Source: the human T2T-CHM13v2.0 reference genome, Homo sapiens. Taken from it: DNA of 64,000 nt. The stretch's first letter is position 1, and every line of letters begins with the position of its first letter. The notes under the pieces are model-generated. The model was not told where the DNA came from. It searched no databases and saw nothing but the letters and a program-made list of their open reading frames with translations. Where the stretch lies: assembly GCF_009914755.1 (NCBI RefSeq), contig NC_060936.1; one strand, given 5' to 3'. Of the stretch, positions 43,500 to 64,000 are shown in pieces. The position numbers were made by a program, and so were the translations under genes.

Positions 43500-45176
43500 T
43501 GGTTTTGCAATTATCAGTGTACCAGAAATCTTTTATCTTACCTACCTGCACGTGAAGTGGGGGGGAAGTAGGGGAAAAAATCCCAGCTTTTCCTTGAACA
43601 GGACCATTTTACTCTCTTAGATGGAAATACATACACATTTTCCTCCTTGGTACACTGACTTTTTTTTTTTTTTTTTTTTAAGAACGTCTGAGTTCTGAAG
43701 CCCATGTGCTATGAGAGCTTTTACATCAAAACAAAATTCTTTCATCTCAAGATCATTGAATGTGTATCTTGAAACTTCATATTCAAGGTTGCTTCCAGTC
43801 CATCAACAATAATTCCCTACTCTAATTCCCTACACAGATTCCTACACTAACCTGCATACCCTCACGTTCTTGAAGTCAAAGCAGATTGGATCACTGACGT
43901 TCAACCACTTAATAAATCTGAGTATGTTTGCGTGTCTTGGTGACTTTAACCTTAGTTACAAAACTAGGAGCCTGGCCTATTTTTTTGGTTATAGTGTAAG
44001 TTTTCTTTCCTTGAAGACTGACTTTTCCAAAACTATCAAAGGAGAAAGATGGCAGTAAGGGAGAAAAACAGAGCATAACTCAGAAACACGAGGCCCAATG
44101 GCAGAGGAAAAAATGGCCGTTGTTGTCTCATGAATAGGCTCTATTAATAAGAATATTCTGGGTATCTTTCGTTTGATGTTATACATTTGCGGCATTTGAC
44201 ATAAGGAATTAGGCTTTCGTAAGGGTGGGATGCCAAGAAAACTGTTGATACAAATAGAAAAGCAGTTTGACAGTGTCATCACCATGAGATAACTGAAATG
44301 CAGATTTAGGGAGCGAAAATGCTACGGAACATCTTTCAAATGTCAAAGCAAAATGAAGGAAAGATTGAGTTTGCAGTAATTATTTAAGACATCGTGAAGA
44401 CTTCTTTAGGACCCAACCATTTATCTCCAAAGCAACATGGCTTTAAAAATTAAAATGAGATCATTTTGAGATAACTCTTTTGATCCCAGTTTAGTCTGGA
44501 CAGAAAATTTAAATAGCCAAAGGGGAAAAAAAAACCATTAACCAAGAGTTCTGGCTACCGAAAAGAGGCACCAAGATAAAATGCAGAACTGGGCCTAACT
44601 TTCTTCTCCCTAAAATAGTTTTGCAACTTGAGTGCATTCCCCTGGGAAAGAGGCTGTGAATTCCATGGAAGTATGCATTCCAAGTTTCCTGCCTCTTAGC
44701 CCTAAGGTCTACCAACCCCTGGACAAACCTATCACTCTTCCACACAAGAGGGTCTATCAAAGCAGTCTGTGGAGATATATAAAAACCAGAGATCACCATG
44801 CCTTAGGGAGGTGATGAGCTGACAGGCTGACAGAAACCATGAAGTTCACATTTCAATCCAAGTTTTCCCGTAAAGCCACTGGCTGAGAGGCCCATCCCTA
44901 CATAGGCAGGGAGCAGAGCAGGGAAGACGAAAATACAAGGTTGAAAAGAATCAAGCAAGAAGGTGTTTTGTTTTGTTTTTTAGAATTCTAAAACTTAAAA
45001 GGAATTTTACTGTAACTTAAACTTGCAGCGATACGATACGGCCATGTCAACTTTTGTGGCACTGAAATGTTACTGCAGGAATAGCTTCTGGGTTTTAAAA
45101 AATTATAAGAGATCATGAGCAGGATAATTATTTAGCTTTAAAAATCAACCAATTAATATACATCTGGAAATTCACA
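43500..45176 (+). promoter_or_regulatory. CACNA1C: Putative cardiac promoter and 5'UTR of CACNA1C exon 1a
   Basis: TATATAAAA 44776-44784; MCAT CATTCC 44635 and 44676; NKX-type TTGAGTG 44628 and CACTTAA 43906; GATA AGATAA 44287, 44469, 44574 and TTATCT 44421, 43533; MEF2 CTATTAATAA 44141; T-box AGGTGA 44809 and AGGTGT 44961; TGACAG 44268, 44820, 44828; CRE half-site 43895. Boundaries and TSS are inferred. Confidence 0.7.
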
Positions 45177-45315
45177 ATGCTTCGAGCCTTTGTTCAGCCT
45201 GGTACGCCTGCATACCAGCCGCTTCCCAGCCACCTGTCTGCCAACACGGAGGTCAAGTTTAAGGGTACTTTGGTGCATGAAGCTCAACTCAACTATTTCT
45301 ACATCTCTCCTGGAG
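45177..45315 (+). CDS. CACNA1C: CACNA1C (Cav1.2 alpha1C) cardiac alternative first coding exon 1a: MLRAFVQPGTPAYQPLPSHLSANTEVKFKGTLVHEAQLNYFYISPG(G)
   Basis: acaATGC start, 46 codons + 1 nt, then GAG|GTAAGA donor at 45316; peptide closely matches the long cardiac N-terminus of rabbit Cav1.2 as recalled (MLRALVQPATPAYQPLPSHLSAETESTCKGTVVHEAQLNHFYISPG). Too short for the ORF track. Confidence 0.93.
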
Positions 45316-48300
45316 GTAAGAAACCCTAAAGTGAAATAAAGAGTAGGAAGAACATGTTGAAATTTACTCTAAATATCCTAATGATACCTAGAATGTGACT
45401 TCCTCACTCTAAGAACTCATCTCTCCATATTTAATCAGGATTTACCACACACCGTTGTAAAATTTTGCCTGTAACTGCACTATCCTGGTTTATGCCGTTC
45501 TTTGGAAATTCTCAATTGAAAAAAAGTGATGTTTGAGGCAACAGGCAATGCAATACTGCCTTTACATAATGAAACACCAATCTTTTACTTTCCTTTTAAC
45601 TCCGTCAGTAAGATCAAGGAGATCAAAATTTCCATATAGACTTCATGTCTGGATTTTTTAGGTCCACAAAGACAAGGCAGAGAGCAAGCTGATTATATTC
45701 AGTAGTGGTATTTTCTTTTTAAATTTCTTCAGTGGAAAAACCAAAAGCTGGTCAAATTTTAAGAGGCTAGTTAAGGGGCCATTAAAGGCAGTGTCATGTC
45801 AGCGTCATTCAAATGTACATTTTCATTTGTAACCCTTTGATTCTTATTAGCATGGTGCATTAGTTCATTTTGCATGTTCTTTGGGGATTTGCCTTATCTC
45901 ATTTATGTTCCTAATAAATATTTCTGTTTGATCTGTTCTTTTAAGATATTTATAATTTGTTTTATATTTTTACCCAAATACCATACAACTCCAAATCATG
46001 AATGATAGCTTGTAATCGTCTAATGAGGACATGTGATAATGTTTGTGTAAATTTTTAAAAGAAGATATATATCCATTCAATTAGGAAGTGGATGATAAAC
46101 ACATAATTACATGGGTAAAATTTAAATAGGCAGGACATCTGATTTGGTAATGTTCTTTCTAATATAACTTCACTAATTCCTCTCAAAAAGACAGGGAAAT
46201 ATGTTTTTCTTAGCATTCAGCAAGGAAGGCATTTAAGTTCCCTCTTTTTACTTGGAAAGCCACGGAAACGTGGTAGTGTGACATTACACAAACCTCTTCT
46301 GGGCATCTAAGGATAAACCAAAATTTAAAATTCCTTCAAACTCCACTCCTTTCATGAAGTCTTCCTCACAAGAGTAGAATAATATTTTCAATGTAAGGAT
46401 GGAGAATATCTAATCATATATTTGTGTAAACACTTGTTTCTGAGACTTCATTCAAATATAATGTTTCTTGATTTACTATAGCATTTATCTAGATCAAGCT
46501 TTAATAAATCTGACCACATTGATGATGACTCGTTACTAGCATATGGTAGTACACATGCACACACAGCTACTAGGCATTTGAAAGATCCCAAGATATTTAA
46601 AAAAAACAGAAAAATAGAACCATGAAATTTTAGAGCCAGAAGTCAGGTAAGAAGCATGCAGTTCAAGAACCTATTTCACCAATGAGGAATCTGTGGTCTA
46701 ACAAGGTTAAATAAGCTAGCCAAAGTCATTTTTCTTGGTTTAATCTGTTTCCCCTAAAACATGCCCTTCTCCCAGCCTTTCAAATGAAATACATGAAGCA
46801 TTCAAATTTGTTTTTACATATTGGATTGAGTTCTAGGCTTGGTTATAAAAGACTGGAATTAGTCTTTTTAAACCAAAGTTCATATGGACTCTCAAAAGGA
46901 AAAAAAGAAGGATGGAATGAAGGGAGGGGGGAGATCAGTGAGGAAGGGAGGGAGGGAGAGGGAGAAAAAGAGAGAAAAGAAAGAGGAAGGGAATTAAGCT
47001 TTCTGGTAGTGGCAGTGTTTTCACAGCAGTAAACACTCGAGCAGCAATGACGCTGCCTGTGTGCTGGCATCCATAGATGGGAAACACAGGCTGCGTTTGG
47101 CCGGCTCTGTGCGGATTCTGTACTTCTTCCCCATTTGGAATGTTTGCACTCAAAATGCTTTCCTCCGGCATGTTCTCTAATGCCTTTAAAGTAATGTTCT
47201 TCCATTCACCTTCTGCGTTAGCTTTACTGACCAAACACGGACACAATCTTGTAAAACAAAATCTTCACTGGCCACTGAGAGTCTACATAGCACTGTTATC
47301 TTTGGCCCCTGGTCTGCTTCTTTTCATATGACATGGTTTTACTGCACCTCACAAATCAGCGATCCCATGACCTGAGAATAATGGAAGGTTCAAAGCAGAT
47401 GAGAAGCAGTTTCTATTTTATGGGTGACTAATACTCATGAACATTTTGGGGGAAACAGTAGAAACAAACCTCCCCTTTCTAAATAAATTAATGTTATTAG
47501 AAAGTTAATGCCATTAAAAACAAACAAAACTCTCTGAATTAAAGCATTATACTAATTTGGATTAAATTAATATGTACTCTCCAACTATAAATGAGAATTT
47601 ATTACTTTCCCAGTAAAAGACAGATTTAATCTTTTAGAAAGTTTTAATTTATAATGGATTCATGTTATATCATTCAATCTTCCTAATCTTCCCAGAGATC
47701 ATCATCTTCCTAAACTGGGAACCTTGAGGTCATCTACTACCCTCAGGTTTACCAAAGGTCATATGGAATCTTTTTCATCGTATACTAATTTCCTAGTTTT
47801 ATTTGTTCCTTTAATCTAAGAGATATAACAGAGTAAATAAACTTTTAAAAATTAGGAAGCAGAAAAGTCCATAGTTTACAACAAATATAAATAGAAACAA
47901 CTTATTCTGCTTTGTTGGCCACTTAAATTTATATTTTCATTTGTTCATAATCTTGCTGAAAAATTTCAAAATCTCCTTGGCCACAAATATCATGCAGGGA
48001 GTCCCTAATACATCTTTTCCTTCTCTCTACTCGTCCTTGAAGACCCAGGCTTTCTCACTCCTCTAGGAATAAACAGTCCCAACTTTTTCTTTGCTCCTGT
48101 AGTTTTGTATATCCTTGTAGTAAAAAAGGTAATAAATTAAGCATTTATAAATCTGTTCCCTCCACTAGACTATAAGCTCCTGGAGGGGAGGACTTTGTTA
48201 AAACACCCAGTACAGCAAACAGCATGTGCAGACATTCAACAAATACTTGCTGAGTTGAAATGAAATCTAAGACTTCAAGCTCTTCTACCATCAATAACCC

Positions 48301-63216: not shown

Positions 63217-63548
63217 CAGCTGGGCATGGTGGCTCCCGCCTGTAATGCCAACTACTCAGGAGGCTGAGGTGGGAAGATCACTTGAGGCCAGGAATTTGAA
63301 ACCAGCCTGGGAAACACAGCAAGATCCTGTCTCTAAAAAGGTTGTTTTAAATTATCTGGATATGGCGGTTTAGCCCAGGAGTTCAAGGTTGCAATGAGGC
63401 TATGACCAATGCCATGGCACTCCAGCCTGGGTGACAGAGCAAGAACTTGTCTCTAAAGAGCAGAGCAGGAGCAGGAGCAGGAGCAGGAGCAGAGCAAAGA
63501 GAAAAAGGAAAGAGGAAAGAAAAGGGAAAGGGAAAGGGAAAGGAAAGG
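63217..63548 (+). mobile_element. AluJ with internal deletion; tail expanded into (GAGCAG)n and (GGGAAA)n
   Basis: Alu arms followed by hexamer repeats at 63458-63548. Confidence 0.85.
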
Positions 63549-63852
63549 GGCTGGGCGTGGTGGCTCACGCCTATAATCCCAGCCCTTTGGGAGGCCAAGG
63601 TGGGTGATCACTTGAAGTCAGGAGTTTGAGACCATCCTGGCCAACACGGTGAAACCCTGTCTCTACTAAAAACACAAAAATCAGCCAGGCATGGTGCCAT
63701 ACACCTATAATCCCAGCTACTCAGAGGCTGAGGCAGGAGAATTGCTTGAACTTGGGAGGTGGAGGCTGCAATAAGCCGAGATTGTGCCACTGCACTCCAG
63801 CCTGGACAAATAGAGCAAGACTCCGTCTCAATTGAAAAAGCAAGAAAAGAAA
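63549..63852 (+). mobile_element. AluS
   Basis: Full dimer. Confidence 0.9.
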
Positions 63853-64000
63853 GGAATCCCCATGTCATTGCTGTCTATAACTTAAGTATTATATTTGGGA
63901 AAATATATTTCCATATGCTAATATCTTATTTAGTTGCGAAATGAAAAACACAGTAAGTGATTACTATATGGGAATATTACAAAAGAAGTGGTCTAATTCA

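What the first reader, a model, noticed from the sequence alone, without database searches (positions are those of the whole stretch)
44776..64000. Cardiac CACNA1C first exon nested antisense inside DCP1B intron 3: overlapping opposed transcription units
Seen: a 139-bp plus-strand coding exon (45177-45315) with ATG and strong GAG|GTAAGA donor, absent from the ORF track, lying between DCP1B exon 4 and the upstream DCP1B exons that must lie beyond the window. Known: the peptide is the long cardiac N-terminus of Cav1.2, which reduces channel open probability; the exon itself is described. Inference: at least 19 kb is transcribed on both strands, the CACNA1C-1a polymerase probably crosses the DCP1B promoter, and DCP1B polymerase must cross the cardiac promoter. 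This allows transcriptional interference linking a decapping factor to Cav1.2 isoform choice.
Basis: partly seen in the sequence, partly recalled or inferred. Interest (0 to 1): 0.8.

Follow-up and report, generated by a model that had tools for sequence, protein, structure and literature searches.

The report
Known cardiac CACNA1C exon inside DCP1B
This is the already described heart-specific first exon of the human L-type calcium channel gene CACNA1C, lying backwards inside an intron of the neighbouring gene DCP1B; the overlap is real, but nothing yet shows that the two genes disturb each other.

Summary
Window 45177-45315 (+) is an ATG-started 139-nt coding stretch ending at GAG|GTAAGA. Its 46-residue peptide is residues 1-46 of predicted primate and bat Cav1.2 proteins (45/46 and 40/46 identical). 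It joins in frame to CACNA1C exon 2, found 143,707 nt downstream. A published primer used to clone the long isoform from human heart RNA matches 45177-45197 exactly.

The exon lies antisense in the DCP1B intron above exon 4. DCP1B exon 1 and its CpG island sit at window-equivalent 78.1-78.9 kb, and CACNA1C exon 1b at 127.7 kb. Exon-1a transcripts must therefore cross the DCP1B promoter, and DCP1B transcripts must cross exon 1a. The two-strand overlap is 33.4-34.9 kb.

All of this is in RefSeq, and a 2015 review shows it for mouse and human.

Transcriptional interference is allowed by this layout but has no evidence here or in the papers I found. General studies disagree on whether such overlaps repress.

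Verdict: a correct reading of a known exon and a known gene overlap, with an untested hypothesis added. Interest is low.

The parts
45177..45315 (+). Coding part of CACNA1C alternative first exon 1a. It encodes the 46-residue long (cardiac) N-terminus of Cav1.2 and ends in phase 1.
   Evidence: Searches give the sequence. Searches show 45/46, 40/46 and 38/46 identity to residues 1-46 (17-62 in the unnamed one) of Cav1.2 proteins. T10, Y13 and P15 of the published TxxYxP motif are present. A heart cDNA primer matches 45177-45197.
45316..45323 (+). Splice donor GTAAGAAA after GAG.
   Evidence: The only AG acceptor tested around exon 2 that keeps the frame open is at window-equivalent 189,022/189,023.
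43666..45176 (+). Annotated 5' untranslated part of exon 1a. The true start site is unsettled.
   Evidence: From the hub's gene table. Position 43666 falls inside a T20 run (43660-43679). This leader would carry 26 upstream ATGs; a start near 44806 would leave 5.
44776..44785 (+). TATA-like TATATAAAAA, 392 nt upstream of the ATG. It is a candidate core element of the CpG-poor cardiac promoter.
   Evidence: The motif count is at chance (2 overlapping hits against 1.8 expected), so this is a lead only. The region has GC 0.39-0.41, CpG o/e 0.31-0.39 and no CpG island.
45316..64000 (+). First 18.7 kb of CACNA1C intron 1a (143,707 nt in all). It is transcribed on the + strand in exon-1a transcripts.
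   Evidence: The stretch holds no Rfam family. None of the 15 stop-to-stop ORFs of 90 aa or more has a Pfam hit above cut-off. GC is 0.31-0.46.
42025..64000 (-). In-window part of the DCP1B intron above exon 4 (intron 3 by the gene table). It is transcribed on the - strand.
   Evidence: Gene table. Exon 4 has an AG acceptor and a GT donor. DCP1-domain exons lie further up at 67378-67524 and 78398-78520.
41958..42024 (-). DCP1B exon 4, the nearest DCP1B exon to exon 1a. It does not overlap exon 1a, so the mature mRNAs are not complementary.
   Evidence: gene table.
20167..39807 (-). DCP1B exons 5-9: 39672-39807, 29546-29674, 26530-27402, 23200-23448, 20167-20400.
   Evidence: Splice sites and the open joined frame are. 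Pfam mRNA_decap_C profile positions 2-18 fall at the end of exon 8 and 19-42 in exon 9.

Best explanation
Window 45177-45315 is the coding part of exon 1a, the heart-used alternative first exon of human CACNA1C. Its own CpG-poor promoter lies inside a DCP1B intron, on the opposite strand.

Transcripts that start here splice across 143.7 kb to exon 2. They give Cav1.2 a 46-residue initial segment. Residues 1-20 of that segment act as an N-terminal inhibitory module: it lowers maximal open probability, and the beta subunit counteracts it.

Isoform choice is a choice of promoter: the CpG-poor exon 1a promoter, or the CpG-island exon 1b promoter 82.5 kb downstream.

The layout forces 33-35 kb of two-strand transcription, and each promoter lies in the other gene's transcribed region. 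I read this overlap as a tolerated by-product. DCP1 and L-type CACNA1 genes are old head-to-head neighbours, and CACNA1C came to use a far-upstream promoter on the other side of its neighbour's promoter.

Shown here: exon identity, splice compatibility, positions and CpG content. From print: heart use and channel gating. Inferred: that the overlap has little regulatory effect on Cav1.2 isoform choice.
For: Identity:
- The peptide equals residues 1-46 of Cav1.2 proteins.
- T10, Y13 and P15 are present, and the length of 46 residues matches PMC2151559.

Splicing:
- Exon 2 lies at chr12 2,111,023 (window-equivalent 189,023), behind a polypyrimidine tract and CAG.
- The join is open, and the 29 residues after the junction equal P0006 residues 47-75.

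Use in heart:
- cDNA of the exon-1a isoform was cloned from human heart RNA with a primer whose last 21 nt equal 45177-45197 (PMC8882172 passages).
- Junction reads show exon 1a in heart and exon 1b in heart and brain (PMC5008151 figure legends 2-4).
- In rat cardiomyocytes about 80% of exon-1 mRNA is exon 1a (PMC10219890 passage citing Cheng 2007).

Layout:
- The DCP1B exon 1 Pfam DCP1 hit is at 78398-78520 (-), inside the only CpG island between 64 and 82 kb (78101-78900, GC 0.63, o/e 0.79).
- The exon 1b coding part is at 127689-127737, in a 2.2-kb island (GC 0.71, o/e 0.95).

Old synteny: on chr3 the DCP1A exon 1 (-) at 53,380,352-468 and CACNA1D exon 2 (+) at 53,530,456 are head-to-head as well.

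Low prior for repression: of 73 protein-coding 5'-overlapping pairs, 29 correlated positively while overlapping and 1 negatively, and expression was higher when overlapping (PMC8076222 section 7).
Against: No expression, nascent-RNA or chromatin data for this locus could be examined here, so 'little regulatory effect' is a prior and not a result.

Mouse ES-cell TT-seq shows strongly strand-biased transcription at 434 promoter overlaps and supports repression by transcription through a promoter (PMC12720443 abstract and section 8). This locus has the architecture that paper's model finds most prone to mutual repression, because both promoters are crossed.

A cardiomyocyte precedent exists: Trdn-as decides the triadin isoform by head-on interference in cis (PMC13401598 passages).

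Splicing QTLs for DCP1B map into the CACNA1C 5' region (PMC10172764 passages), so some cross-talk in the region is on record.

The start site of exon 1a is not settled: the annotated 43666 lies in a T20 run, and the TATA-like element at 44776 is a chance-level motif.
Confidence: 0.9

Rival explanations
1. This is the reader's reading: the two opposed transcription units repress each other. The means would be polymerase collision over 33-35 kb, or chromatin marks laid down when a promoter is transcribed through. DCP1B activity and the choice of Cav1.2 first exon would then be coupled.
For: Each promoter lies in the other's transcribed region. Promoter-overlapping antisense pairs in mouse ES cells are strand-biased, and a synthetic locus shows stable repression (PMC12720443 abstract and section 8).
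Against: There are no data for this locus. The review legend names H3K4me3 peaks for both Cacna1c start sites and for the Dcp1b start site; I could not see in which tissues. The human 5'-overlap survey found a negative correlation in 1 of 73 pairs while overlapping. Neither gene appears in the held supplements of either general study. Exon 1a choice already has a sufficient explanation in a tissue-specific promoter.
Confidence: 0.06
2. There is a one-way effect only. One form: the highly active cardiac exon-1a unit attenuates or truncates DCP1B transcription in cardiomyocytes, like Trdn-as on Trdn. The other form: DCP1B read-through outside the heart helps keep the intragenic, CpG-poor exon 1a promoter shut. 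In neither form does DCP1B steer Cav1.2 isoforms in heart.
For: Trdn-as gives a precedent in cardiomyocytes (PMC13401598 passages). The promoters differ in type: a CpG island for DCP1B and a CpG-poor promoter for exon 1a. Exon 1a dominates in cardiomyocytes.
Against: It is untested. CpG-island promoters often stay active when transcribed through; that is recalled general knowledge, not a call. The survey argues against general repression.
Confidence: 0.1
3. The ORF is a chance open frame or an unused pseudo-exon, and the annotation is a model artefact.
For: The ORF is short (50 aa). The peptide has no Pfam family and no solved structure. The annotated 5' end lies in a T20 run.
Against: It is 45/46 identical to the N-terminus of a primate Cav1.2 and 40/46 to a bat one. 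It fits exon 2 in frame. The isoform was cloned from human heart with a matching primer. Junction reads are reported in print.
Confidence: 0.01

Closest known systems
Cav1.2 long-NT (cardiac) isoform, exon 1a of CACNA1C. The rabbit cardiac alpha1C of Mikami 1989 and the human form of Blumenstein 2002 are both known to me only through citing papers.
   Same: 46-residue initial segment, TxxYxP motif at T10/Y13/P15, in-frame join to exon 2, more than 80 kb upstream of exon 1b, and use in heart.
   Different: Nothing found. This is that exon in the T2T human assembly.
Protein-coding gene pairs that overlap at their 5' ends through alternative start sites (Rosikiewicz et al. 2021, PMC8076222).
   Same: Two protein-coding genes on opposite strands. 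The overlap exists only when one particular (here cardiac) start site is used.
   Different: The overlap is long (33-35 kb) and spans both promoters. The pair is not in that paper's held supplement.
Promoter-spanning antisense loci with mutual repression (Mutzel et al. 2025, PMC12720443). Airn/Igf2r is the classic case, recalled and not checked here.
   Same: Transcription of each unit runs through the other's promoter.
   Different: The loci in that study overlap by about 2.7 kb on average and are mostly coding/non-coding pairs. Here both genes are coding, the overlap is tenfold longer, and no repression is shown.
Trdn-as / Trdn in cardiomyocytes (PMC13401598).
   Same: A cardiomyocyte-specific antisense transcription unit inside a gene of the excitation-contraction field. 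Head-on interference in cis decides an isoform.
   Different: There the antisense partner is a lncRNA and the outcome is early termination of the sense gene, shown by experiment. Here nothing is shown, and the analogous victim would be DCP1B.
The paralogous pair DCP1A / CACNA1D on chromosome 3.
   Same: Head-to-head order of a DCP1 gene (-) and an L-type CACNA1 gene (+).
   Different: DCP1A exon 1 and CACNA1D exon 2 lie 150 kb apart. I saw no sign of a CACNA1D first exon inside DCP1A, but I did not search for one.

Membership tests
CACNA1C exon 1a (Cav1.2 long N-terminus) | Initial segment of 46 residues at the very N-terminus of Cav1.2. | tested here: met
   46 codons. It aligns to residues 1-46 of predicted Cav1.2 proteins at 45/46 and 40/46. 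The published length of 46 aa is in PMC2151559.
CACNA1C exon 1a (Cav1.2 long N-terminus) | TxxYxP motif at T10, Y13, P15 inside the inhibitory module (residues 1-20). | tested here: met
   P0001 has T10, Y13 and P15. The motif is as defined in PMC2151559.
CACNA1C exon 1a (Cav1.2 long N-terminus) | Splices in frame to the invariant exon 2. | tested here: met
   The phase-1 end joins the exon 2 acceptor at chr12 2,111,023 with an open frame. The 29 residues after the join are identical to P0006. The cDNA from heart is in print.
CACNA1C exon 1a (Cav1.2 long N-terminus) | Lies far upstream (more than 80 kb) of exon 1b. | tested here: met
   The two ATGs are 82,512 nt apart. The review gives '>80 kb' for mouse.
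CACNA1C exon 1a (Cav1.2 long N-terminus) | Heart-specific use. | not testable with these tools
   From print only: PMC5008151 legends, PMC10219890, PMC8882172.
Promoter-spanning antisense gene pair | Opposite strands, with each start site inside the other's transcribed region. | tested here: met
   Exon 1a (+) lies between DCP1B exon 4 and DCP1B exon 1 (-). The DCP1B exon 1 CpG island lies between exon 1a and exon 2.
Promoter-spanning antisense gene pair | Complementary mature RNAs (exon-exon overlap). | tested here: not met
   The nearest DCP1B exon ends at 42024 and annotated exon 1a starts at 43666 (gene table). Only pre-mRNAs overlap.
Transcriptional interference in cis (Airn/Igf2r or Trdn-as type) | The partner is repressed or truncated, the effect depends on the act of antisense transcription, and it acts on the same allele. 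| not testable with these tools
   This needs stranded nascent RNA and promoter or termination perturbation. No paper found reports it for this locus.
DCP1 family (identity of the minus-strand host gene) | N-terminal DCP1 (EVH1-like) domain and C-terminal mRNA_decap_C domain. | tested here: met
   PF06058 positions 2-42 and 47-95 score 37.1 and 46.7 bits, above the 22.5-bit cut-off. For PF16741, exon 9 scores 38.8 bits, above the 27-bit cut-off; the exon 8 end scores 24.5 bits, below it.

The most novel reading that the evidence does not exclude
The cardiac exon 1a unit and DCP1B form a promoter-spanning antisense pair with real interference in cis. In cardiomyocytes, heavy exon-1a transcription would run head-on into DCP1B polymerases and through the DCP1B CpG-island promoter, lowering or truncating DCP1B output in a Trdn-as-like way. 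Outside the heart, DCP1B read-through would help keep the intragenic exon 1a promoter shut. A decapping cofactor would then be tuned by a calcium-channel promoter switch.
Probability: 0.1. Interest if true: 0.55.

Novelty: already known. Interest (0 to 1): 0.2.

Why it matters
Exon 1a sets the gating behaviour of the main cardiac calcium channel, and CACNA1C is a major arrhythmia and psychiatric risk gene, so anything that governs its promoter choice is of interest. The exon, its heart use and its position opposite DCP1B are already annotated and shown in print.

What remains open is narrow: whether 33-35 kb of opposed transcription across two promoters has any effect. If it did, the likelier consequence is a heart-specific change in DCP1B, not a DCP1B effect on the channel.

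For variant interpretation, the layout is a reminder that variants between exon 1a and exon 1b sit in both genes' transcribed regions.

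Tried and rejected
- Solved structures: the peptide has no relative in the PDB sequence set. The one hit at E 1.4 is an interleukin receptor with a tag-like stretch, which I take as chance.
- Pfam gives no family for the peptide.
- Full-text search for the first 14 residues of the peptide found 0 papers.
- A whole-protein genome search with the 1978-aa primate Cav1.2 returned no usable answer. 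The 184-aa bat fragment then did the job.
- Blumenstein 2002, the first description of the human exon, is not held. I therefore could not read a published start site or promoter description.
- Origin of exon 1a by duplication of exon 1b: there is no DNA similarity (622 of 1000 shuffles reached the observed local score), and only 5 of 15 residues are identical in the published register. The idea is neither supported nor excluded.
- Promoter motif scan of 43400-45320:
  - TATA 2 against 1.8 expected, MEF2 1 against 0.5, NKE 2 against 1.5, MCAT 1 against 0.7, E-box 8 against 9.9;
  - CArG 0;
  - GATA 9 against 4.2.
  This is too weak to name a start site or a factor.
- Rfam over the whole window found 0 families at gathering score.
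- Tandem repeats in 43-64 kb are only short purine-rich arrays, an A25 run and an Alu-like 298-nt period.
- 15 stop-to-stop ORFs of 90 aa or more in 45316-64000 have no Pfam hit above cut-off. One glycosyl-hydrolase hit scored 16.2 bits against a cut-off of 23.5.
- Held supplements of the two general antisense studies name neither gene.
- PMC3778269's 'exon 1A' passage concerns SCN5A, not CACNA1C.
- Of the 10 papers holding both 'CACNA1C' and 'transcriptional interference' I opened two. The others I judged from titles and abstract starts only.

Full report
WHAT IS THERE

On the + strand an ATG at 45177 opens a frame of 46 codons plus one base, ending at 45315 before GTAAGA. The frame continues only four codons into the intron, giving a 50-aa ORF at 45177-45329. 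That explains its absence from a list of longer ORFs. The start context has A at -3, and the nearest in-frame upstream stop is TAA at 45096. The donor matches 7 of 9 positions of the recalled consensus MAG|GTRAGT. An ORF of this size is common by chance, so its reality rests on comparison.

IDENTITY

A search of 5.8 billion proteins, limited to chains of 82-2000 residues, scored 7 candidates, of which 6 had E <= 0.001.
- Four are predicted Cav1.2 isoforms of a snub-nosed monkey: 45 of 46 identical, aligned to their residues 1-46.
- One is a bat CACNA1C fragment: 40 of 46, residues 1-46.
- One is an unnamed 95-aa protein: 38 of 46, residues 17-62.

The peptide carries T10, Y13 and P15. This is the TxxYxP motif of the published N-terminal inhibitory module of the long, cardiac isoform, whose initial segment is 46 residues and is encoded by exon 1a (PMC2151559 passages). 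That paper reports that residues 1-20 lower maximal open probability, and that the beta subunit's increase of Po,max depends on this module.

The peptide has no Pfam family and no solved structure.

SPLICING AND USE

Searching the window's own genome with the bat fragment placed exon 2 on the same strand at chr12 2,111,004-2,111,435 (E 6.4e-71). Around it, one AG acceptor, behind a pyrimidine tract, keeps the frame open when joined to exon 1a. Its first exon base is 2,111,023, window-equivalent 189,023. The 29 residues after the join are identical to the bat protein. Intron 1a is therefore 143,707 nt.

In print:
- Clones of the 'exon 1a-containing long' isoform were obtained from human heart RNA with a forward primer whose last 21 nt equal window 45177-45197 (PMC8882172 passages; exact single match).
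- A review shows junction reads for exon 1a in human heart and exon 1b in heart and brain (PMC5008151 figure legends 3 and 4).
- Rat data put exon 1a at about 80% of exon-1 mRNA in cardiomyocytes (PMC10219890 passage citing Cheng 2007).

THE HOST GENE

On the minus strand, all 6 annotated DCP1B exons in the window have AG acceptors and all 5 internal ones have GT donors. Their coding parts join into one open frame of 511 codons ending in a stop. The C-terminal decapping-protein domain (Pfam PF16741) is split between the end of exon 8 and exon 9.

Beyond the window, the DCP1 domain (PF06058) matches the minus strand at window-equivalent 78398-78520 (profile 2-42) and 67378-67524 (profile 47-95). 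The first of these lies in the only CpG island between 64 and 82 kb: 78101-78900, GC 0.63, o/e 0.79, 59 CpGs. This agrees with the annotated gene end at 78585.

I did not find the third upstream exon, so the number 'intron 3' is taken from the gene table.

THE WHOLE LAYOUT

Positions in window-equivalent coordinates:

| Feature | Position | Strand |
|---|---|---|
| DCP1B exon 4 | 41958-42024 | - |
| CACNA1C exon 1a | 43666 (annotated) to 45315 | + |
| DCP1B promoter island | 78.1-78.9 kb | - |
| A further CpG island | 108951-109450 | not assigned |
| CACNA1C exon 1b coding part | 127689-127737 | + |
| CACNA1C exon 2 | from 189023 | + |

- The exon 1b coding part is a 16-residue peptive stretch with the same TxxYxP motif and donor AAG|GTAAGG. 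It sits inside a 2.2-kb CpG island with GC 0.71 and o/e 0.95.
- The two ATGs are 82,512 nt apart, matching the review's '>80 kb' for mouse.
- Two-strand transcription covers 33,409 nt counted from the ATG, 33,780 nt from a start 30 nt past the TATA-like element, or 34,920 nt from the annotated start.
- No exons overlap, so the mature mRNAs are not complementary.

THE PROMOTER

The exon 1a region is CpG-poor (GC 0.39-0.41, o/e 0.31-0.39) and has no island. The motif count in 43400-45320 is at chance, however (2 overlapping hits against 1.8 expected). Only GATA-like sites are mildly frequent (9 against 4.2).

The annotated 5' end, 43666, lies inside a run of 20 T (43660-43679). A leader starting there would hold 26 upstream ATGs; a start near 44806 would leave 5. 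On the minus strand that run is an A20 tract in DCP1B intron RNA. My inference, untested, is that oligo-dT priming there could have produced the long 'leader'.

HOW THE LAYOUT MAY HAVE ARISEN

On chromosome 3, DCP1A exon 1 (-) at 53,380,352-53,380,468 and CACNA1D exon 2 (+) at 53,530,456 are also head-to-head. The neighbourhood therefore probably predates the duplication that made the two pairs. On chromosome 12, exon 1b keeps that divergent order, 49,104 nt from the DCP1B start. Exon 1a sits on the far side of the DCP1B promoter.

Exon 1a shows no DNA similarity to exon 1b (622 of 1000 shuffles reach the observed score), and 5 of 15 residues are identical in the published register. A duplication origin is not supported.

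INTERFERENCE

The layout is the one in which each unit transcribes through the other's promoter.

For repression:
- Mouse ES-cell nascent-RNA data show strong strand bias at 434 promoter overlaps, and a synthetic locus shows stable repression (PMC12720443 abstract and section 8).
- Trdn-as decides the triadin isoform in cardiomyocytes by head-on interference in cis (PMC13401598 passages).

Against it as a rule: among 73 human protein-coding pairs that overlap at their 5' ends in some libraries, 29 correlated positively and 1 negatively while overlapping, and expression was higher when overlapping (PMC8076222 section 7).

For this locus I found nothing.
- Papers holding both gene names are GWAS or QTL reports and the review.
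- None of the 10 papers with 'CACNA1C' and 'transcriptional interference' appears to concern DCP1B. I opened 2 and judged the rest by title and abstract start.
- None of the 25 papers listed holds DCP1B.
- Neither gene is in the held supplements of the two general studies.
- The library lacks most subscription journals, so absence from print is not proven.

VERDICT

The finding is a correct sequence-only recognition of a known, annotated exon and of a gene overlap already drawn in a review. The interference idea is legitimate and testable, but it is unsupported. If there is an effect, the weakly expressed DCP1B is the likelier victim, not Cav1.2 isoform choice. Novelty: already known. Interest: low.

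Noticed in passing
window 43660-43679 (and the annotated exon start at 43666): The annotated 5' end of CACNA1C exon 1a falls inside a run of 20 T. On the minus strand this is an A20 tract within DCP1B intron RNA, so the 1.5-kb 'leader' might stem from internally primed antisense cDNA. That leader would hold 26 upstream ATGs.
   Followed up: partly
G000 chr3 53,375,102-53,380,468 (-) and 53,530,456-53,530,749 (+); loci L003, L007, L009: DCP1A and CACNA1D are head-to-head on chromosome 3, mirroring DCP1B and CACNA1C on chromosome 12. CACNA1S (chr1) and CACNA1F (chrX) exon-2 matches were also seen. This points to an old DCP1 / L-type channel neighbourhood.
   Followed up: partly
outside the window, window-equivalent 108951-109450 (locus L014/L015 region): A 500-bp CpG island (GC 0.61, o/e 0.86, 40 CpGs) lies at the annotated 3' end of the lncRNA CACNA1C-IT1 (90800..109190 +), between the DCP1B promoter and exon 1b.
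   Followed up: no
window 23200-23448 and 20323-20400 (-): The DCP1 C-terminal domain (PF16741) is cut by an intron between profile positions 18 and 19. The exon 8 piece alone scores below Pfam's cut-off (24.5 against 27 bits).
   Followed up: yes
window 53164-53714: A tandem of period 298 (1.8 copies, 84% matches) has a consensus that looks Alu-like (recalled). It coincides with the only CpG-rich run in the finding's span (53101-53450).
   Followed up: no
protein P0007 (unnamed, 95 aa, from a 1474-bp contig): This relative of the exon 1a peptide (38/46) starts 16 residues before the aligned methionine and runs 33 residues past the exon end. It is probably an ORF call read through the splice donor in some mammal's contig.
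   Followed up: no
window 45177-45264: An internal GT (AGG|GTACTT) in the same phase lies 51 nt before the real donor. It could in principle give a 29-residue variant. I saw no evidence that it is used.
   Followed up: no
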